NCBI RefSeq assembly: GCF_000007145.1
Contig: NC_003902.1
Span: forward strand, 4,316,497-4,348,496
Source: Xanthomonas campestris pv. campestris str. ATCC 33913
GTDB lineage: Bacteria > Pseudomonadota > Gammaproteobacteria > Xanthomonadales > Xanthomonadaceae
Length of the DNA stretch: 32,000 nucleotides
Reading direction: 5' to 3'
Positions 898-11,256 of this stretch are shown here, one piece after another. A program made the position numbers and the translations under genes. Under the pieces are notes generated by a model, which saw only the letters and a list, made by a program, of their open reading frames with translations, was not told where the DNA came from and searched no databases. Positions within the stretch are counted from its first letter, which is position 1. Every line of letters starts with the position of its first letter.

Positions 898-1157
898 CGC
901 AGCTTTGCGGCCCCCCACAATGGCCTCACGTCGGGCGCAGGCTTAGAGCAGCTATCAAAACGACTGCGCAGCCGCCAGGCGGGCGCGGCCGGTGCTCGGA
1001 ATCGGCATGTACCCACGTACACTCCGGTTCCTCCGCGCCGCCCGCACCCACCTGACGGCTGCTCGCTACGTTTTGTTAGCCGCTCTTAGCTGCCGTAAAT
1101 TGACCTCGCGGGCTCAAGCGGACTAGATTGGCCCCCCTACCGCCATGGAGGCCGGCC

Positions 1158-4770: not shown

Positions 4771-4986
4771 TGCGGCGACTCCGCCGCCAGCGGCCCTTAT
4801 CCTTTGGTCGTCCACCAGTAGCGGCCGCATGCGTGGCATCCGCCACCAACGCATTCACCGCACAACACCGTCCCATTCCATACGCACCCGTAGCGAGGAA
4901 TGGCAACAGGTGCGTGCGGTACACTTGGGGGTTCACGAATTCACGATGTCGACACACCCGCGGGGTGTGTCCCCCCGGGAGCGCTA

Positions 4987-7674
4987 ATGAACTGGTTGAA
5001 CGAAGTGCTGCACAACGATCCGAACCCGCTCGAGACCCAGGAGTGGCTCGAATCGATCAAGGCCGTCATCGACGTCGAAGGCCCGGAGCGCGCCCATCAG
5101 CTGCTGGAAGGCATGGTCGAACAGACCCGCCGCGCCGGCGCTTACCTGCCGTTCTCGCCCACCACCGAGTACGTCAACACCATCTCTCCGGCCAACGAGG
5201 CCAAGAACCCCGGCGACTCCGCGCTGGAGTGGAAGATCCGCTCGATCATCCGCTGGAACGCCATGGCCACCGTCGTGCGGGCCAACCGCAAGCCGGGCGA
5301 CCTGGGCGGCCACATTGCCTCGTTCGCGTCCAGCGCCACGCTCTACGACGTGGGCTTCAACCACTTCTGGCGTGCGCCCAGCGACCAGCACCCGGGCGAC
5401 CTGCTGTTCATCCAGGGCCATAGCGCGCCGGGCATCTACGCCCGCGCCTTCCTGGAAGGCCGCATCAACGAAGCCCAGCTGGACAACTTCCGCATGGAAG
5501 TGGACGGCCAGGGCATCTCGTCCTACCCGCACCCGTGGCTGATGCCCGAGTTCTGGCAGACCCCCACCGTGTCGATGGGCCTGGGCCCGCTGGCCGCCAT
5601 CTACCAGGCGCAGTTCATGCGCTACCTGGAAAACCGCGGGCTCATCGAGAAGTCCGACCGCAAGGTGTGGTGCTTCATCGGCGACGGCGAGTCGGATGAG
5701 CCCGAAACCCTCGGCGCCATCGCACTGGCCGGCCGCGAAGGCCTGGACAACCTCATCTTCGTGGTCAACTGCAACCTGCAGCGCCTGGACGGTCCGGTGC
5801 GCGGCAACGGCAAGATCATCCAGGAACTGGAAGGCGTGTTCCGTGGCGGCGGCTGGAATGTCATCAAGCTGCTGTGGGGCGGTTACTGGGATGCCCTGCT
5901 GGCCAAGGACACCGACGGCGTTCTGCGCAAGCTGATGATGGAAACCGTCGACGGCGAATACCAGAACTGCAAGGCCTTCGGTGGCGCCTACACGCGCGCC
6001 AACTTCTTCGGCAAATACCCGGAGACCGCGGCCATGGTCGCCGGCCTGTCCGACGACGACATCTGGCGGCTGAACCGTGGCGGCCACGACCCGCACAAGG
6101 TGTACGCCGCCTACAACCAGGCCGTGAACACCAAGGGCATGCCCACCGTGATCCTGGCCAAGACCGTCAAGGGCTACGGCATGGGCTCGGCCGGTGAGGC
6201 GCTCAACCCCACCCACCAGACCAAGAAGCTGGACGACGCAGCGGTCAAGCACTTCCGCGACCGCTTCAACATTCCGGTCACCGACGCGCAGCTGGAAGAC
6301 GGCAAGGTGCCGTTCTACCACCCCGGCGAAGACTCCCCGGAAGTGCAGTACCTCAAAGAGCGCCGCAACGTGCTGGGCGGCTTCCTGCCGTCGCGCCGTC
6401 CCAAGGCCAGCAAGTCGTTTGTCGCGCCCACGCTCGACAAGTTCGAGCGCCTGCTCAAGGACAGCGGCGAGCGCAGCTATTCCACCACCATGTCGTTTGT
6501 GCAGAGCCTCAACATCGCCCTGCGCGACAAGGAACTGGGCCCGCGCATCGTGCCGATCGTGGCCGATGAAGCGCGCACCTTCGGCATGGAAGGCATGTTC
6601 CGCCAGATCGGCATCTATGCCCCGTTCGGCCAGAAGTACAAGCCGGTCGATGCCGACCAGCTGATGTACTACCGCGAAGACCAGACCGGCCAGGTGCTGC
6701 AGCAGGGCATCAGCGAGCCGGGCGCCATCGCCTCGTGGATGGCCGCCGGCACCAGCTACTCGGTCTCCGACGTGCCGATGCTGCCGTTCTACATCTACTA
6801 CTCCATGTTCGGCTTCCAGCGCGTGGGCGACATCGCCTGGCAGGCCGCGGACATGCGCACGCGTGGCTTCCTGCTCGGCGGCACTGCCGGCCGCACCACG
6901 CTCAATGGCGAAGGCCTGCAGCACGAAGACGGCTTCAGCCAGGTCATCGCCGGCTCCATCCCGAATGTGCGTAGCTACGACCCGACCTTCGGTTTCGAAG
7001 TCACCGTCATCATGCAGCACGGCATGAAGGCGATGATGGAAGACCAGATCGACGAGTACTACTACATCACCCTGATGAACGAGAACTACGCACACCCCGG
7101 CATGCCGGACGGTGCGCAGGAAGGCATCATCAAGGGCATGTACCTGCTCAAGGACGCCGGCAAGCCCAAGAAGGGCGAGCTGCGCGTGCAGCTGCTGGGC
7201 AGTGGCACCATCCTGCGTGAGGCCATTGCCGCAGCCGAGCTGCTGGACAAGGACTTCGGCGTCACCGCCGACATCTGGTCCTGCCCCAGCTTTAACGAAT
7301 TGCGCCGCGACGGCTTCGACGCCGAACGTTGGAACCGCCTGCACCCGGAAGCCGAACAGCGCAAGCCGTACGTCACCCAACTGCTGGAAGGCCGCCAGGG
7401 CCCGGCGATTGCCGCAACGGATTACGTGCGCCTGTTCGCCGACCAGATCCGCGCCTTCGTCCCGATGACCTACAGCGTGCTTGGCACGGATGGGTTCGGT
7501 CGTTCGGACACGCGTGCCAACCTGCGTCGCTTCTTCGAGGTCGACCGTTACTACATCGCGCATGCGGCGATTGCCGCGCTGGCGAAGGACGGCAAGATGA
7601 CGGGCAAGGATGTGTCCCGGGCGATCAAGCAGTACAAGATTGATCCTGAGAAGGCGAATCCTGTTGGGGTTTGA
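4987..7674 (+). CDS. aceE: Pyruvate dehydrogenase E1 component (homodimeric type)
   Basis: ORF 4900..7674. The start ATG 4987 gives MNWLNEVLHNDPNPLETQEWLESI, which is colinear with AceE over about 895 aa, including the ThDP-binding region (GDGESDEPE...NCNLQRLDG). Confidence 0.97.
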   Translation: MNWLNEVLHNDPNPLETQEWLESIKAVIDVEGPERAHQLLEGMVEQTRRAGAYLPFSPTTEYVNTISPANEAKNPGDSALEWKIRSIIRWNAMATVVRANRKPGDLGGHIASFASSATLYDVGFNHFWRAPSDQHPGDLLFIQGHSAPGIYARAFLEGRINEAQLDNFRMEVDGQGISSYPHPWLMPEFWQTPTVSMGLGPLAAIYQAQFMRYLENRGLIEKSDRKVWCFIGDGESDEPETLGAIALAGREGLDNLIFVVNCNLQRLDGPVRGNGKIIQELEGVFRGGGWNVIKLLWGGYWDALLAKDTDGVLRKLMMETVDGEYQNCKAFGGAYTRANFFGKYPETAAMVAGLSDDDIWRLNRGGHDPHKVYAAYNQAVNTKGMPTVILAKTVKGYGMGSAGEALNPTHQTKKLDDAAVKHFRDRFNIPVTDAQLEDGKVPFYHPGEDSPEVQYLKERRNVLGGFLPSRRPKASKSFVAPTLDKFERLLKDSGERSYSTTMSFVQSLNIALRDKELGPRIVPIVADEARTFGMEGMFRQIGIYAPFGQKYKPVDADQLMYYREDQTGQVLQQGISEPGAIASWMAAGTSYSVSDVPMLPFYIYYSMFGFQRVGDIAWQAADMRTRGFLLGGTAGRTTLNGEGLQHEDGFSQVIAGSIPNVRSYDPTFGFEVTVIMQHGMKAMMEDQIDEYYYITLMNENYAHPGMPDGAQEGIIKGMYLLKDAGKPKKGELRVQLLGSGTILREAIAAAELLDKDFGVTADIWSCPSFNELRRDGFDAERWNRLHPEAEQRKPYVTQLLEGRQGPAIAATDYVRLFADQIRAFVPMTYSVLGTDGFGRSDTRANLRRFFEVDRYYIAHAAIAALAKDGKMTGKDVSRAIKQYKIDPEKANPVGV

Positions 7675-7682
7675 TCGCTACC

Positions 7683-7711
7683 AAAAAAAACGGCCGCAAG
7701 GCCGTTTTTTT
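7683..7711 (+). terminator. Rho-independent (bidirectional-looking) terminator of aceE
   Basis: An A8 run, stem cggcc / ggccg with loop gcaa, then a T7 run, starting 9 nt after the aceE stop. Confidence 0.85.
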
Positions 7712-7713
7712 AC

Positions 7714-7742
7714 TTGGAAAATTTTTATATTTGATTAATAAT
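7714..7742 (+). promoter_or_regulatory. Candidate sigma70-type promoter for the retron transcript
   Basis: TTGGAA (7714-7719), a 17-nt spacer, then AATAAT/TAATAA (7736-7742). The predicted start near 7749 coincides with the first base of the 5' inverted-repeat arm. Confidence 0.4.
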
Positions 7743-7748
7743 CGCCAA

Positions 7749-7907
7749 CGGGGGTATGGTTCATGTCGTTCGTCGTCGTATTCGTCGACCAGAAAAGGAC
7801 TTGTGGAGTCAAGAGCATCGCCGCTCAACGTTCCATGATGTCGCTAAATGTAACTGTCAGTCACTCTCAGTAACCTATAAGCGTTAAGTTGATGAGCCAT
7901 GCCCCCG
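7749..7907 (+). ncRNA. Putative retron msr-msd non-coding RNA (template and primer for msDNA)
   Basis: It lies directly upstream of, and overlaps, the start of a retron-type RT. Region 7749-7764 (cgggggtatggttcat) pairs with 7892-7907 (atgagccatgcccccg) over 16 contiguous positions (14 Watson-Crick plus 2 G-U). G7765 sits immediately after the 5' arm, where the branching guanosine lies in known retrons. Imperfect internal hairpins are at 7801-7838 and 7842-7883. No credible ORF is present. Confidence 0.55.
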
Positions 7908-9593
7908 CTCCCCGATTATGCATCTACTGAGTTATTGCTGGGCCTCAAGACCCGAAAGGATCTCGCGTCCTGGTTGGGTGTATCAGATAGAGCTCTACGA
8001 TATATGCTGTATCGGCTTGGTGATGGGGATAAGTACAGCACCTTCTCGATTCGAAAGCGGAATGGTGGTTTGCGAGAAATTCATGCGCCTAAAAAGGCGC
8101 TAAAATATCTCCAGAATAAAGTTGCACATGCCCTTGCGGGCGTTGTTCCTGTCCGTCAAATAGCGAAAGGCTATGTGCCTGGTCGAAGCATCTACGACCA
8201 TGCAAAAATGCATCGATCCAAGAAGTGGGTCGTTCTTGTTGATCTGAAAAGTTTTTTCCCTTCAATAAATTTTGGACGAGTTCTCGGACTTCTGCGTGCG
8301 CCTCCATTTTCTTTGGAAAATGAAGTGGCGGTCGCTGTTGCTCAGCTGTGTACAAGAGCGGGTGAGCTACCACAAGGGGCGCCTTCGTCACCGGTTATTT
8401 CCAATTTGATTTGCAGAAAACTTGATCGTCAGCTGCTTGAGCTGGCGAAGCAGGCGGGCTGTGGGGTCAGCAGGTATGCTGATGACATTTGCTTTTCCAC
8501 GAACCGTAAGCGTGTTTCAGTCGAAATTTGCGATTTCGTCAATGAGCATGGATGGGTTCCTGGCGCTGGTTTGAAGCAGCTTATTTGCTCCAATGGCTTT
8601 GAAATTAATTTTTCGAAATTTCGTGTTCACGAGGGGCGCGACAGGAAATTGGTTACTGGGCTCGTGGTTAATAAGGGTGTGTCGACGCCAAGCAGATGGA
8701 GGGATCAACTAAGATCTTCACTTCATGTTATTGATAAGTATGGCGAAGCTGCTGGAGTAGAAATAATTTCTGGCTGGACTTCTGGATTTTTTCGTAAAGA
8801 GCCTGGGGATGTGCTTCGCACTATTAGAGGGAAGCTTGGCTATCTTAAATGGATTGATAAAGTGGCTAATCATTTGGCTACTGATGCGTTGCGCAGAAAC
8901 TTTCCATCTCTTGCATCATTAATGCCGATTTCAAATGATGGTGTTTCATTTAGAATTATGGCAGAAGGTCCGACGGACCTTCTGCATTTGGAGGCTGCGC
9001 TCGATTATCTTCGGAAAAGTGGAGGTTTTCTAGATGTTCGCCCTAGGTTTCAAAATTTCCTCGGAGATGTGGGTGATTCAGAGTTGTGGGAAACTTTGTT
9101 GCGTATTGCGAAAGCTGATGTTAATGAATTGACTATAGGTGTTTTTGATTGCGATAGCCCGGCATTCATGAAGAAGACGTCGCTGGTCCCCGGCGGGAAC
9201 ATCCAATTGGGGCCGCGGGTCTACGCATTTTGTTTGGCGCCGCCTGGCACGAGCATTTCAAATAATTTTTGCATCGAGTCGCTATATTCGCGATCAGATG
9301 CAACTTTAGTTGATGGTTCCGGTAGGCGATTATTTTTTGGTGATGAATTCGATAGTGCCAGTGGTTTTTCGCATGACGGGTTGTATAAGTGCTTGCATCC
9401 TAAGAAGAAGGCGATCGTTGTGAGTGATCAGGTTGCCCGGGTTCACGATGGCGCTTCCGTTCTTTTATCTAAAGCCGGGTTTGCCAGTCAGGTGAAAGAC
9501 AAGGCTCCGCCATTCGATGTGGTGTCTTTTGATGGGTTTAGACCAACCTGGCTTGGGATTCGCGCGTTGGCGATCGCAGCCGTTAGAAAGTAA
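7899..9593 (+). CDS. Retron-type reverse transcriptase fused to a C-terminal Toprim-like domain (Ec67-like architecture)
   Basis: 564-aa ORF in AT-rich DNA. RT motifs: GLREIHAPKKALKYLQ, GYVPGRSIYDHAKMH (NAxxH-like), VLVDLKSFFPSI, LPQGAPSSPVISNL, SRYADDICFS (YADD codons 8475-8486) and RKLVTGLVVN (VTG codons 8652-8660, a retron hallmark). The C-terminal region has FRIMAEGPTD (Glu 8964-8966) and IGVFDCDS (DxD 9147-9155), matching the Toprim E...DxD pattern. By my recollection it is colinear with the Ec67 RT (TIITEGKTD ... VLDNDTG). Confidence 0.9.
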   Translation: MPPLPDYASTELLLGLKTRKDLASWLGVSDRALRYMLYRLGDGDKYSTFSIRKRNGGLREIHAPKKALKYLQNKVAHALAGVVPVRQIAKGYVPGRSIYDHAKMHRSKKWVVLVDLKSFFPSINFGRVLGLLRAPPFSLENEVAVAVAQLCTRAGELPQGAPSSPVISNLICRKLDRQLLELAKQAGCGVSRYADDICFSTNRKRVSVEICDFVNEHGWVPGAGLKQLICSNGFEINFSKFRVHEGRDRKLVTGLVVNKGVSTPSRWRDQLRSSLHVIDKYGEAAGVEIISGWTSGFFRKEPGDVLRTIRGKLGYLKWIDKVANHLATDALRRNFPSLASLMPISNDGVSFRIMAEGPTDLLHLEAALDYLRKSGGFLDVRPRFQNFLGDVGDSELWETLLRIAKADVNELTIGVFDCDSPAFMKKTSLVPGGNIQLGPRVYAFCLAPPGTSISNNFCIESLYSRSDATLVDGSGRRLFFGDEFDSASGFSHDGLYKCLHPKKKAIVVSDQVARVHDGASVLLSKAGFASQVKDKAPPFDVVSFDGFRPTWLGIRALAIAAVRK

Positions 9594-9748
9594 AGGCGCC
9601 ACTAACTGGGTTGGAGTAGCGGAATCAGGTTAACTTATCAGGCGATGGCGCTCGGCTTGCGTGGCCGGTGAGCGGGCCTGCCCCCCGAGCAAAGCAGCGG
9701 GTCTTGGCTTCGATCATCGCGCGGAAGGCAGCGTGGCCCAGAGTAAAT

Positions 9749-11256
9749 AGTCGCCCCTGAAAAACCCCCAATCACCCAACGCCCGCAAGGCCTTGATGTC
9801 TGCAGTGGCGTGCCAGAACTACCAGTTTTCGCTACGCTGAAGGCTGGTTTCTGGCAATTTCCACTCATGCATACACGCCGTCCTGCTGCCGAGCACATGC
9901 CTGCCGAGGAGTTGTTTCGTTCGCGCCTGGAGAACCAGATCGATCTGCGGCATCCGCTGGCGCAGCTGAGCCAACGGATGCCGTGGACGGCGTTGGAGCA
10001 AGCACTTTCATCGCGCTTGCCGGCCACCCAGGCTGGTGGCGGTCGGCCGGCATTGCCGGTGCGGCTGATCGCCGGTTTGCTCTACCTCAAACACGCCTAC
10101 GACCTGTCCGATGAGGCGGTGTGCGAGCGTTGGCTGGAAAATCCGTATTGGCAGTTTTTCACTGGCGAGGTCGTGTTCCAGACGCGCTTGCCGTGCGATG
10201 CCAGCTCGCTGACGCGCTGGCGTCAGCGGCTTGACGAAGCGGGGATGGAAGAGTTGCTGGCACACACCATCAACGCTGCACATGCCATGCAGGCGGTGGA
10301 CGCACGCGAGTTGTCGCGGGTGATCGTGGACACCACGGTGCAGGAAAAGGCGATTGCCTATCCGACCGATAGTCGGTTGCTGGAGGTGGCACGCAAGAAA
10401 CTGGTGCTGCTGGCCAAGCGTTACGGCATCGGGTTGCGGCAGAGCTACGCACGGCAAGGTCCGGCCCTGAGCCGCAAGGCGGGCCGCTATGCGCATGCAC
10501 GCCAGTTCAAGCGCATGCAGCGCGTGCTGCGACGTCAACGCACGGTCTTGGGGCGGGTGTTGCGCGATATCGCGCGCAAGCTGGACCAGGTGGAACCCGG
10601 CGTGCGCGAGCGCATCGCGGTCTGGCTGGAACGTGCGCAACGGCTGTACACGCAGCGTCCGAAGGACAAACAAAAACTGTACGCATTGCATGCCCCGGAA
10701 GTGGAATGCATCGGTAAGGGCAAGGCGCGTCAAGCGTACGAATTCGGCGTCAAGGTCGGCATTGCGGTCACCGCCTGCAAGGGATTGGTCGTGGGTGCGC
10801 GTAGCTTCCCGGGCAACCCGTACGACGGCGACACCTTGGCCGAGCAGCTGGAGCAGACACGCGGGTTGCTGCAGGATCTGAGCGTAGAACCGACGGTGGC
10901 GATCGTGGACCTGGGCTATCGCGGGCGCGAGGTCGATGGCGTGCAGGTGCTCCATCGTGGCAAGGCCAAGACGCTGACGCGACGGCAATGGCGCTGGATC
11001 AAACGACGGCAGGCGGTGGAACCGGTGATCGGACATCTGAAAGACGACTGCAGGTTGCGTCGCTGCAGGCTGAAAGGTGCACAAGGCGATGCGCTGCACG
11101 TACTCGGCTGCGCCGCCGGCTACAACCTGCGCTGGCTGCTGCGCTGGATCGCGTTTTTGCGTGCCTGGATGCGGGCGATGGGATGGCCATCCTTTAGCGC
11201 CGTGCCGCTGTCGCCGATGACACTTGGTGCTTGAAGGGGGTTTTTCAGGGGCGACT
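9749..11256 (+). mobile_element. IS5-family insertion sequence (1508 bp)
   Basis: Perfect 21-bp terminal inverted repeats: agtcgcccctgaaaaaccccc (9749-9769) and gggggtttttcaggggcgact (11236-11256). They enclose a single DDE transposase ORF. The flanks (aaat / ggtt) show no direct duplication. Confidence 0.85.
9810..11234 (+). CDS. IS5-family DDE transposase (InsH-like N-terminal domain plus DDE_Tnp_1)
   Basis: 474-aa maximal ORF with a GTG start at 9810; ATG 9867 or 9897 are more likely true starts. Motifs include RMPWTALEQAL...GGRPALPVRLIAGLLYLKHAYDLSDEAV...WLENPYWQFFTG, VIVDTTVQEKAIAYPTDSRLL, YEFGVKVGIAV and DLGYRG. Confidence 0.9.
   Translation: MPELPVFATLKAGFWQFPLMHTRRPAAEHMPAEELFRSRLENQIDLRHPLAQLSQRMPWTALEQALSSRLPATQAGGGRPALPVRLIAGLLYLKHAYDLSDEAVCERWLENPYWQFFTGEVVFQTRLPCDASSLTRWRQRLDEAGMEELLAHTINAAHAMQAVDARELSRVIVDTTVQEKAIAYPTDSRLLEVARKKLVLLAKRYGIGLRQSYARQGPALSRKAGRYAHARQFKRMQRVLRRQRTVLGRVLRDIARKLDQVEPGVRERIAVWLERAQRLYTQRPKDKQKLYALHAPEVECIGKGKARQAYEFGVKVGIAVTACKGLVVGARSFPGNPYDGDTLAEQLEQTRGLLQDLSVEPTVAIVDLGYRGREVDGVQVLHRGKAKTLTRRQWRWIKRRQAVEPVIGHLKDDCRLRRCRLKGAQGDALHVLGCAAGYNLRWLLRWIAFLRAWMRAMGWPSFSAVPLSPMTLGA

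What the first reader, a model, noticed from the sequence alone, without database searches (positions are those of the whole stretch)
7712..9640. Self-contained AT-rich retron cassette (promoter, msr/msd, RT-Toprim fusion) inserted right behind the aceE terminator
Base composition changes abruptly after the aceE terminator. Hand-counted 60-nt lines inside the cassette give about 37-50% GC, against about 65% in aceE, and composition returns to host-like near 9637. The cassette holds a candidate promoter, a structured non-coding region of about 160 nt, and one 564-aa ORF. That ORF has all retron-RT hallmarks (YADD, an NAxxH-like motif and the retron-specific VTG) plus an extra C-terminal Toprim-like domain. 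Retrons are tripartite anti-phage systems (ncRNA, RT and effector), and here the effector appears to be fused to the RT, as in Ec67. The closest well-studied retrons I can recall are enterobacterial, myxobacterial and vibrio examples, so this Xanthomonas copy may not have been characterised. It is the strongest candidate for a horizontally acquired defence system in the window.
Basis: partly seen in the sequence, partly recalled or inferred. Interest (0 to 1): 0.85.

Follow-up and report, generated by a model that had tools for sequence, protein, structure and literature searches.

The report
Single-gene RT-Toprim retron in Xanthomonas
This is a real, intact single-gene retron (a bacterial anti-phage element made of a small structured RNA plus a reverse transcriptase fused to a nuclease domain) sitting in a variable spot just after the aceE gene of Xanthomonas campestris; it is an uncharacterised member of an already known class, not a new kind of system.

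Summary
A low-GC segment (0.42-0.53 against about 0.65) follows aceE. It carries a promoter-like site, a 159-nt non-coding RNA and one 564-aa ORF (7899-9593). The ORF is a retron reverse transcriptase (YADD, VTG, HAxxH) fused to a C-terminal Toprim domain (EGPTD, DCD). The full-length model aligns over both domains to the Eco2/Ec67 structures (E about 1e-35). The RNA is supported by covariation in eight loci. It has a 16-bp a1/a2 stem (7749-7764 / 7892-7907) with the two opposing G residues typical of retrons, and a conserved msr hairpin. PADLOC's top label, "RT-TIR type XII", is misleading: there is no TIR, and the domain matches an Ec67-like Toprim (hhalign 94.8%). The literature already notes that some I-C sequences are mislabelled as XII. 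The organism is X. campestris pv. campestris; strain 8004 has the same cassette. Strains with an identical AceE protein carry either this retron or a DUF6119 gene, and homology breaks one base after the aceE stop. So the left boundary is 7676, not 7712. The shared segment ends at about 9747, where an IS5-family element begins. The Eco2-like mechanism is inferred, not shown. Verdict: a new member of a known kind, of moderate-to-low interest.

The parts
7676..9747 (+). Whole variable retron cassette as shared by RT-carrying X. campestris strains
   Evidence: RT-less strains with an identical AceE (L097, L101), and loci of another species with 89%-identical aceE, lose homology at 7675. L001 and L099 share sequence up to 9750/9785. 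IS copies start at 9744-9748. Low GC.
7684..7711 (.). Perfect 12-bp hairpin flanked by A and T runs (bidirectional terminator for aceE), carried by the cassette allele
   Evidence: I2. The alternative DUF6119 allele has a different hairpin at the same place, as do L092/L094.
7714..7742 (+). Promoter-like site, -35 TTGGAA / 17 nt / -10 AATAAT; predicted start about 7749
   Evidence: Both boxes are conserved in L092/L094. A -10-like hexamer ends 6-9 nt upstream of a1 in all 8 loci. Consensus match only; transcription was not measured.
7749..7764 (+). a1 arm of the retron ncRNA (CGGGGGTATGGTTCAT)
   Evidence: 15 aligned pairs with a2, 8 of them with changes on both sides across 8 loci.
7765..7765 (+). 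Candidate branching (priming) guanosine, first base after a1, in the invariant CAT-G-TYGT block
   Evidence: Invariant column in A5. Lies opposite invariant G7891; 'two opposing G residues' is the canonical retron feature (PMC7736814, Fig. 2 legend). Assignment inferred, not shown.
7772..7789 (+). msr hairpin GTCGTCG-TATT-CGTCGAC (7 aligned pairs)
   Evidence: helix 2, 94.6% of cells paired, 2 pairs with compensatory changes.
7797..7816 (+). Second small conserved msr hairpin (GGACTTGTGGA...GAGC block)
   Evidence: helix 3, 91.7% paired, 2 pairs with changes on both sides.
7819..7891 (+). Presumed msd (template for msDNA): invariant CGC (7819-7821) / GCG (7881-7883) clamp around a variable core, then the conserved GCGTTAAGTTG up to G7891
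   Evidence: The core varies between loci and folds only weakly (z from -1.65 to +0.32). The extent of reverse transcription is not predictable from sequence.
7892..7907 (+). a2 arm (ATGAGCCATGCCCCCG); overlaps the RT start codon at 7899
   Evidence: Seven of the 8 loci show this geometry (a2 begins 6-7 nt before the RT ATG and runs 8-15 nt past it); in L187 the detected arm lies 11-20 nt downstream of the ATG.
7899..9593 (+). RT-Toprim fusion gene, 564 aa
   Evidence: PADLOC retron clade-8 models. Foldseek top hits are Eco2, 627-640 aligned columns, E 2.4e-35.
7941..8858 (+). Retron reverse-transcriptase domain (aa about 15-320) with HAKMH (aa 101-105), YADD (aa 193-196, nt 8475-8486) and VTG (aa 252-254, nt 8652-8660)
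   Evidence: Pfam RVT_1 6e-18. Ec67 9i2f 3e-48 over aa 13-285. Motifs invariant in A2.
8931..9590 (+). C-terminal Toprim effector domain (aa about 345-564): E356-G357-x-x-D360 (nt 8964-8978), D417-x-D419 (nt 9147-9155), and further invariant E460 (nt 9276-9278) and K525
   Evidence: Alignment A1. The profile hits only the Ec67 Toprim in the PDB. hhalign 94.8% to an Ec67-like Toprim, 0.2% to a retron TIR. AF2 model pLDDT 93.5, with Glu at the end of beta1 and DxD at the end of beta3.

Best explanation
The segment 7676 to about 9747 is a single-gene retron of the RT-Toprim (type I-C-like) class in a variable site just after aceE of Xanthomonas campestris pv. campestris. A promoter at 7714-7742 would drive one transcript that starts near 7749. 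Its 5' part folds into the retron ncRNA: the a1/a2 stem, two msr hairpins and the msd template. Its 3' part encodes the fusion protein. By analogy with other retrons, the RT would bind the msr and prime DNA synthesis from the 2'-OH of G7765. It would copy the msd starting opposite G7891, giving a branched msDNA. By analogy with Eco2/Ec67, the msDNA would hold the RT-Toprim oligomer together and cage the Toprim nuclease. A phage nuclease that degrades the msDNA would free the Toprim. The Toprim would then cut cellular RNA (tRNA acceptor stems in Eco2), stop translation and abort the infection. Shown here: gene and domain identity, catalytic residues intact, ncRNA structure conserved by covariation, strain-variable presence. 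Inferred from homologues: msDNA synthesis, branch point, oligomer, trigger, target and anti-phage role.
For: Retron RT: the best PADLOC matches are all retron clade-8 fusion models at 303-498 bits. The closest PDB sequences are Ec67, Ec86 and Ec78. Both domains: the full-length AF2 model (pLDDT 89.5) aligns to Eco2 chains over 627-640 columns (E 2.4e-35 to 5.9e-32), against about 350 columns for RT-only retrons. Toprim: EGxxD and DxD, the motifs that define type I-C in PMC7736814, are invariant in 31 sequences except the Glu, present in 30 of 31. The profile finds only Ec67 in the PDB. hhalign gives 94.8%, E 4.9e-8, over 174 columns to an Ec67-like Toprim. ncRNA: a1/a2 arms were found independently in 8 loci; in 7 of them they show the same geometry (127-136 nt apart, a2 across the RT ATG) but different sequences, while in L187 they are 151 nt apart with a2 downstream of the ATG. 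91.9% of cells are paired against 82.4 +/- 1.4 in shuffles (0/500) and 31-55% when slid; 12 pairs change on both sides. The non-coding stretch is better conserved (89% mean column identity) than the 72%-identical proteins. Self-contained: no neighbouring gene is shared across the 8 family loci. Horizontal or variable: among the 23 contigs read that encode an identical AceE, 18 carry the RT and 5 carry a DUF6119 gene instead. GC is about 0.15-0.2 lower than the host. Mechanism of the closest system: PMC12916289.
Against: There is no experimental evidence for msDNA or phage defence in this lineage, and no paper on a Xanthomonas retron was found. The protein is only 24-25% identical to Eco2 and falls below NCBIfam's curated cutoff for the Ec67 family (308 against 450 bits, aligned only to aa 373). 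The isolated C-terminal model finds no significant structural match. The ncRNA is not more stable than shuffles, and the msd core folds weakly. Rfam has no match. The ncRNA model built here does not detect Ec67-like loci, so the trigger and target could differ from Eco2.
Confidence: 0.82

Rival explanations
1. It is a type XII retron (RT fused to a TIR domain) that kills by NAD+ depletion, as the top PADLOC label 'RT-TIR_XII' would have it.
For: PADLOC PDLC02961/02962 are the best hits (498/495 bits), also for the C-terminal part alone (78/71 bits against 52 for the I-C models).
Against: No Pfam TIR or TIR_2 hit even at E <= 10, whereas genuine RT-TIR proteins give TIR_2 at 67-75 bits. NCBIfam's Retron_TIR model aligns only to the RT part and is far below its cutoff (280 against 600). 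hhalign against a true retron TIR domain gives 0.2% probability. The domain has the EGxxD/DxD Toprim motifs. True TIR and this Toprim score alike on the same model positions, so the PADLOC models appear to be built from a mixed set. PMC12916289 states that some I-C sequences are mislabelled as type XII.
Confidence: 0.02
2. The RT belongs to a non-retron class (group II intron, DGR, Abi, DRT/UG), and the upstream 'ncRNA' is just a leader.
For: Weak similarity to group II intron RT and Drt2/Drt3 models exists, as for any prokaryotic RT. Group II and DRT structures appear far down the Foldseek list.
Against: Group II 44 bits (cutoff 300), Drt2 28.6 bits, Drt3a 24.1 bits. Retron models score 150-498 bits. 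No intron RNA domains are found in Rfam. The upstream RNA has the a1/a2 stem with opposing G residues and covaries.
Confidence: 0.01
3. The cassette is a retron, but an incomplete or non-defensive one. The true effector was a downstream gene lost to the IS insertion at about 9748, with the Toprim acting only as an RNase-H-like maturation domain. Or the element has another cellular role.
For: In this genome an IS abuts the cassette. The 72%-identity relatives always have a 297-aa gene of unknown function 120 nt downstream. Other Xcc alleles have Mrr-like or HTH-M78 genes there.
Against: No downstream gene is shared across the family's 8 loci. All RT-carrying Xcc alleles share the same sequence up to about 9747 regardless of what follows. 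The Toprim catalytic residues are invariant or nearly so across the family. In Eco2 the Toprim is the effector and is not needed for msDNA biogenesis (PMC12916289).
Confidence: 0.1

Closest known systems
Retron-Eco2 (Ec67), type I-C1, E. coli (PDB 9I2F, 9I2G, 9S1F, 9LM3)
   Same: A single-gene retron. An N-terminal retron RT is fused to a C-terminal Toprim with EGxxD and DxD. The ncRNA lies directly upstream, with a1/a2 arms and a G after a1. The whole-length structural alignment spans 627-640 columns, and the Toprim domains are homologous by profile.
   Different: Only 24-25% identical. Below the NCBIfam Ec67-family cutoff. A separate clade in a rough RT tree. Toprim motif flavour EGxTDxxH with DxD about 60 residues later, against EGKTDN[IV]Y with DND about 83 residues later in Ec67-like proteins. 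The ncRNA sequence family is not shared. The a2 arm overlaps the RT start codon. Chromosomal hotspot rather than a prophage; host is Xanthomonas.
Type I-C3 RT-Toprim retrons of Mestre et al. 2020 (PMC7736814)
   Same: RT clade 8, a C-terminal Toprim with EGxxD and DxD, and no associated gene. The window family's best Toprim-type PADLOC models (PDLC02965/02968, full-length alignment, 333-447 bits) differ from the Ec67-type models.
   Different: I could not see which sequences define I-C3 because the supplement is not held, so the assignment is by elimination. Mestre's table lists the I-C3 ncRNA as not determined, whereas here a covariation-supported ncRNA is defined.
Type XII RT-TIR retrons (for example loci L017, L023)
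   Same: RT clade 8, a single fused gene, a1/a2 arms abutting the RT start. The RT domains are 38% identical to the window's. They share top-scoring PADLOC models.
   Different: The effector domain is a TIR (Pfam TIR_2) with no detectable relationship to the window's Toprim.
Retron-Eco8 (type I-B2) and OLD-family nucleases
   Same: They use a Toprim nuclease as the retron effector, held in check by msDNA (PMC12916289 introduction). Two of 31 family members give weak OLD-like_TOPRIM Pfam hits.
   Different: There the Toprim is in a separate ATPase-Toprim protein. The RT belongs to another clade and matches the window protein only weakly (2e-09).

Membership tests
Retron (general) | Reverse transcriptase of the retron clades with YADD, the retron-specific VTG and the NAxxH region | tested here: met
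   PADLOC retron models 150-498 bits. PDB best hits are all retron RTs. YADD aa 193-196, VTG aa 252-254 and HAKMH aa 101-105 are invariant in A2; the first residue of NAxxH is H here.
Retron (general) | ncRNA directly upstream of the RT, with inverted repeats a1/a2 enclosing msr and msd and two opposing G residues at the inner end of the stem | tested here: met
   a1 7749-7764 / a2 7892-7907, with G7765 and G7891 invariant. Covariation 0/500 shuffles; slid controls 31-55% against 91.9% paired.
Retron (general) | Production of branched msDNA (2'-5' linkage) by the RT | not testable with these tools
   Needs nucleic-acid extraction, RNase/DNase treatment and debranching.
Retron (general) | Effector protein or domain linked to the RT (tripartite system) | tested here: met
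   Fused Toprim domain with conserved catalytic residues.
Retron type I-C (Mestre et al. 2020) | Clade-8 RT fused at its C-terminus to a Toprim domain with motif IV EGxxD and motif V DxD (DxE in I-C2) | tested here: met
   EGPTD aa 356-360 and DCD aa 417-419; G, both motif-V Asp and D360 are invariant and the Glu nearly so (30 of 31) in A1. Definition read in PMC7736814. Homology to an Ec67-like Toprim at 94.8%.
Retron type I-C (Mestre et al. 2020) | Single protein-coding gene, no conserved accessory gene | tested here: met
   Neighbours differ in all 8 family loci.
Retron type I-C1 (Eco2/Ec67 family proper) | Reaches the curated score of NCBIfam NF038237 (retron_Ec67_fus) / groups with Ec67 in the RT tree | tested here: not met
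   308 bits against a cutoff of 450, aligned only to aa 16-373. Ec67-like proteins score 677-741 bits on PDLC02966/02963 while the window protein scores 302-308. Separate clade in the NJ tree (no support values).
Retron type I-C1 (Eco2/Ec67 family proper) | Shares the Ec67-type ncRNA family | tested here: inconclusive
   The covariance model of the window family finds nothing in Ec67-like loci. But no Ec67 ncRNA model was available, and Rfam holds none that matched.
Retron type XII (RT-TIR) | C-terminal TIR_2 domain | tested here: not met
   No TIR hit at E <= 10. hhalign gives 0.2% to a true retron TIR. NF042941 scores 280 against a cutoff of 600, RT part only.
Anti-phage abortive-infection system | Protects a population from phage; depends on the RT and effector active sites | not testable with these tools
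   Only context supports it: a variable site shared with Mrr-like restriction, SymE and HD-domain genes.

The most novel reading that the evidence does not exclude
The Xanthomonadaceae/Lysobacter family is a separate RT-Toprim retron branch, currently mislabelled as type XII by automated tools, with properties of its own. Its ncRNA was not previously defined. In that ncRNA the a2 arm buries the RT start codon, which could couple folding of the msr/msd to translation of the toxic RT-Toprim. Its Toprim is divergent, with about 100 extra residues and additional invariant Glu460/Lys525, and may recognise a trigger or cut a target different from Eco2's tRNA acceptor stems. It also marks the aceE 3' end as a defence-gene hotspot across Xanthomonas.
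Probability: 0.2. Interest if true: 0.5.

Novelty: new member of a known kind. Interest (0 to 1): 0.33.

Why it matters
It gives a clean, fully delimited retron (promoter, ncRNA with a proposed branching G, RT-Toprim) in an important plant pathogen, where no retron has been studied. The element is small enough (about 2.1 kb) to clone and test directly.

It also shows a practical annotation trap. PADLOC's type XII "RT-TIR" models call this Toprim fusion a TIR retron, so automated censuses of Xanthomonas defence systems will misreport the effector.

The covariation-supported ncRNA for this lineage, and the finding that the site after aceE alternates between a retron and other cargo in otherwise identical backgrounds, are useful for comparing strains in phage-biocontrol work.

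None of this changes the current picture of how retrons work.

Tried and rejected
(1) Rfam, at gathering and at permissive thresholds, finds nothing in the cassette except terminator look-alikes.

(2) The single-sequence RNA fold of 7712-7900 is no better than shuffles. I relied on covariation instead.

(3) Foldseek with the C-terminal model alone gave no significant hit. The full-length model was informative.

(4) The search for related loci with the single protein in species-representative genomes found nothing. Close relatives had to be fetched one at a time by exact-protein look-up; one of these (P0008) had no DNA available.

(5) Using MetQ as an anchor for presence/absence failed, because the window's aceE-metQ adjacency is an IS-mediated junction. 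AceE worked as an anchor.

(6) The covariance model R1 did not extend the ncRNA family beyond the seed lineage, apart from one weak hit in L080.

(7) The alignment-free a1/a2 scan in distant clade-8 loci gave scores that mostly overlap shuffled controls, so I make no general claim from it.

(8) Mestre's supplementary table, needed to see the official type of Xanthomonas entries, is not held.

(9) Phage and plasmid collections hold no close relative, so no vehicle was identified.

(10) Considered and rejected: a type XII/TIR reading, a group II intron or DRT reading, and a minus-strand ORF 9638-10027 that crosses the IS boundary and is spurious.
Full report
OBSERVATION. The window shows a sharp compositional break after aceE. 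GC is 0.63-0.70 in 5000-7500, falls to 0.42-0.53 over 7600-9500, and is back near 0.6 by 9600. One long ORF lies inside, 7899-9593 on the + strand, 564 aa. A perfect 12-bp hairpin flanked by A and T runs (7684-7711) follows the aceE stop. A sigma-70-like site, TTGGAA-17-AATAAT, lies at 7714-7742.

THE PROTEIN. Pfam sees only RVT_1 (aa 51-216), with nothing in the C-terminal 244 residues. Against the PDB by sequence, the best match is retron Ec67/Eco2 (3e-48, aa 13-285), followed by Ec86, Ec78, Ec83 and Eco8. NCBIfam gives retron_Ec67_fus at 308 bits (cutoff 450) and Retron_TIR at 280 bits (cutoff 600, RT part only). Group II intron scores 44 bits (cutoff 300) and Drt2/Drt3a score 29 bits or less. 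YADD (aa 193-196), VTG (aa 252-254) and HAKMH (aa 101-105, the NAxxH region) are present, and all but the variable x positions of HAxxH are conserved in at least 90% of 32 relatives.

THE C-TERMINAL DOMAIN. PADLOC's best models were "RT-TIR_XII" (498 bits), ahead of "RT-Toprim_I-C" (335 bits). This also held for the C-terminal part alone, 78 against 52 bits. I treated this as a conflict to resolve.
- An alignment of 31 C-terminal domains has G357, D360, D417, D419, E460 and K525 invariant and E356 nearly so. These are the EGxxD and DxD motifs by which Mestre et al. define the type I-C Toprim (PMC7736814).
- The profile finds only the Ec67 Toprim in the PDB, E 2.7e-5, at TEGKTD and the C-terminal helix.
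- The AlphaFold model of the domain (pLDDT 93.5) has alternating beta-alpha units, with the Glu at the end of beta1 and DxD at the end of beta3, as in Toprim.
- On its own that model found no significant Foldseek hit.
- The full-length model (pLDDT 89.5) has the Eco2 structures as top hits, with 627-640 aligned columns covering both domains (E 2.4e-35 to 5.9e-32). RT-only retrons follow at about 350 columns.

To test the TIR label directly, I took genuine RT-TIR proteins from fetched loci (L017, L023; Pfam TIR_2 at 67-75 bits).
- hhalign of the window family's profile against a true retron TIR gives 0.2% probability. Against an Ec67-like Toprim it gives 94.8%, E 4.9e-8, over 174 columns.
- In PADLOC a true TIR C-terminus (72-88 bits) and the window's Toprim (70-78 bits) score alike on the same model positions 344-477. 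Those two HMMs therefore appear to derive from a mixed set.

Conclusion: this is an RT-Toprim fusion. It is not Ec67's own subtype. It is below the NCBIfam cutoff, has a different motif flavour and spacing, and forms a separate clade in a rough neighbour-joining tree without support values. It is closest to the PADLOC Toprim models PDLC02965/02968, probably Mestre's I-C3. I could not verify that because the supplement is not held.

THE NON-CODING RNA. A 16-nt inverted repeat, 7749-7764 / 7892-7907, encloses 127 nt, and its 3' arm overlaps the RT start codon. The fold of the single sequence is not unusually stable (z +0.24), and Rfam has no match. I therefore collected relatives: two 72%-identity proteins (loci L092-L095), and 43-50% relatives from Lysobacter, X. 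graminis, X. translucens and metagenomes (L105, L185, L187, L188, L190).
- An alignment-free scan finds in every one of the 8 loci an arm pair with unrelated arm sequences. In 7 of the 8 the geometry is the same: a1 ends in CAT, a2 begins with ATG and runs across the RT ATG, and the separation is 127-136 nt. In L187 the detected arms are 151 nt apart, a1 ends in GGG, and a2 lies 11-20 nt downstream of the ATG.
- In the alignment (A5), RNAalifold gives the a1/a2 stem (15 pairs), a 7-bp msr hairpin, a second small hairpin, and an invariant CGC/GCG clamp around a variable core.
- On that structure 91.9% of cells pair, against 82.4 +/- 1.4 in column shuffles (0/500) and 31-55% when partners are slid by 1-3 columns. 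Twelve pairs change on both sides (2/500).
- The bases just inside the stem, G7765 and G7891, are invariant. They correspond to the "two opposing G residues" of canonical retron ncRNAs (PMC7736814). G7765 is the candidate branching G.
- The non-coding region is better conserved (89% mean column identity) between the window and the 72%-identity relatives than the proteins are, and both promoter boxes align. A -10-like hexamer ends 6-9 nt before a1 in all 8 loci.
- The msd core is variable and folds weakly, so the msDNA ends cannot be predicted.
- A covariance model of this RNA (R1) finds only this lineage among 169 sources searched (the window and 168 fetched loci), plus one weak hit.

CONTEXT AND ACQUISITION. 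Contigs encoding exactly the window's AceE protein identify the organism as X. campestris pv. campestris. CP000050.1, which I recognise as strain 8004 (my own knowledge of the accession), carries the same aceE-RT-IS arrangement at 99.98% identity.
- Of the 23 contigs read, 18 have the RT after aceE. Five (represented by L097 and L101) have a DUF6119 gene instead.
- Homology between the two alleles ends at 7675, one base after the aceE stop. Each allele has its own terminator hairpin. The same break is seen against loci of another species with 89%-identical aceE, which carry the 72% variant of the retron.
- On the right, all RT-carrying alleles share sequence to about 9747. After that the contents differ: an IS5-family element in the window and in 8004; an Mrr-like restriction gene plus SymE in L099; an HTH-Peptidase_M78 gene in L001.
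- The window's IS (about 9748-11256) is joined to metQ exactly as in L090, whereas strain 8004 has other genes there. So the aceE-metQ adjacency is a rearrangement specific to this genome.
- No integrase, direct repeats or phage genes were seen. No close relative exists on sequenced phages or plasmids.
- The cassette is best described as cargo of a recombination hotspot at the aceE 3' end, of foreign composition and strain-variable.

MECHANISM. The best-supported model is that of Eco2, the only RT-effector fusion retron with a known mechanism. There, three RT-Toprim subunits are tied together by their msDNAs, which cage the Toprim sites. Phage nucleases (DenB, A1) start msDNA decay. The freed Toprim nicks tRNA acceptor stems and translation stops (PMC12916289). 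For the window's retron, the components and catalytic residues needed for this scheme are all present and conserved. msDNA synthesis, oligomeric state, trigger and target are inferences from a homologue that is 24-25% identical. In 7 of the 8 family loci a2 overlaps the RT start codon; I did not establish whether that holds for Eco2, and its significance is unknown.

COMPARISON AND NOVELTY. It works like, and has the architecture of, a type I-C retron. It meets the I-C definition (clade-8 RT, C-terminal Toprim with EGxxD/DxD, single gene). It fails membership of the Ec67 family proper (I-C1) and of type XII. No publication on a Xanthomonas retron was found. The class, its classification problem and the mechanism of its best-studied member are all published. 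I rate it a new member of a known kind, with interest about 0.33. It is a sound and well-delimited finding, useful for annotation and for work on Xanthomonas phages, but not surprising to a specialist.

Noticed in passing
window 1007-1081 (+): Xanthomonas sRNA sX9 (Rfam RF02228, 94.7 bits; gathering score 44), the only Rfam match at gathering threshold in the window.
   Followed up: no
window about 9748-11256 (transposase ORF 9810-11234, +): IS5-family element (DUF772 + DDE_Tnp_1). Its junction with the metQ side is identical to that in L090, whereas in strain 8004 (L096) the same IS next to the retron is followed by GFA and DJ-1 genes. This window's genome therefore carries an IS-mediated rearrangement joining the aceE-retron region to metQ.
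   Followed up: partly
window 7675/7676; loci L097, L101, L099, L001, L092-L095, L187: The position one base after the aceE stop codon is a cargo-exchange site in Xanthomonas. Cargo seen there: the retron; a DUF6119 gene; an Mrr-like restriction gene plus SymE toxin; an HTH-Peptidase_M78 gene; a 297-aa unknown gene; and in X. graminis an HD/dGTPase-like gene with an RT. Each allele brings its own aceE terminator hairpin.
   Followed up: partly
PADLOC models PDLC02961/PDLC02962 (not a window feature): The 'RT-TIR_XII' HMMs score a Toprim C-terminus and a true TIR C-terminus about equally on the same model positions. PADLOC-style annotation will therefore call this and related RT-Toprim retrons type XII.
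   Followed up: yes
L017 4799-4912 and L023 4882-4999: Genuine RT-TIR (type XII) loci have a1/a2-like arms (GGCATCCTGCCCTTC / GAGGGGCGGGATGTC), 84-88 nt apart, with one compensatory change between the two loci. The 3' arm lies at the RT start. This would be an ncRNA for a type listed as 'not determined' in Mestre's table.
   Followed up: no
window 7892-7907 against 7899: The a2 arm of the ncRNA overlaps the RT start codon in 7 of the 8 family loci (in L187 the detected arm lies just downstream of the ATG). An out-of-frame ATG at 7892 is conserved because it pairs with the CAT at the end of a1. This could link RNA folding to RT translation; untested.
   Followed up: no
window 9594-9747: A stretch of about 150 nt with host-like GC after the RT stop is shared by all RT-carrying Xcc alleles, whatever follows it. 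No terminator, ORF or RNA family was identified in it.
   Followed up: no
window 4900-4986: The mechanical aceE ORF (924 aa from 4900) is 29 codons longer than the gene as called in public genomes (895 aa, starting at 4987). The shorter form is the one found as an exact protein in 233 blocks of the collection.
   Followed up: yes
L080 4747-4912: Weak match (18.6 bits, E 0.016) of the window family's ncRNA model just upstream of a retron RT in Metabacillus idriensis. It is the only hit outside the family.
   Followed up: no
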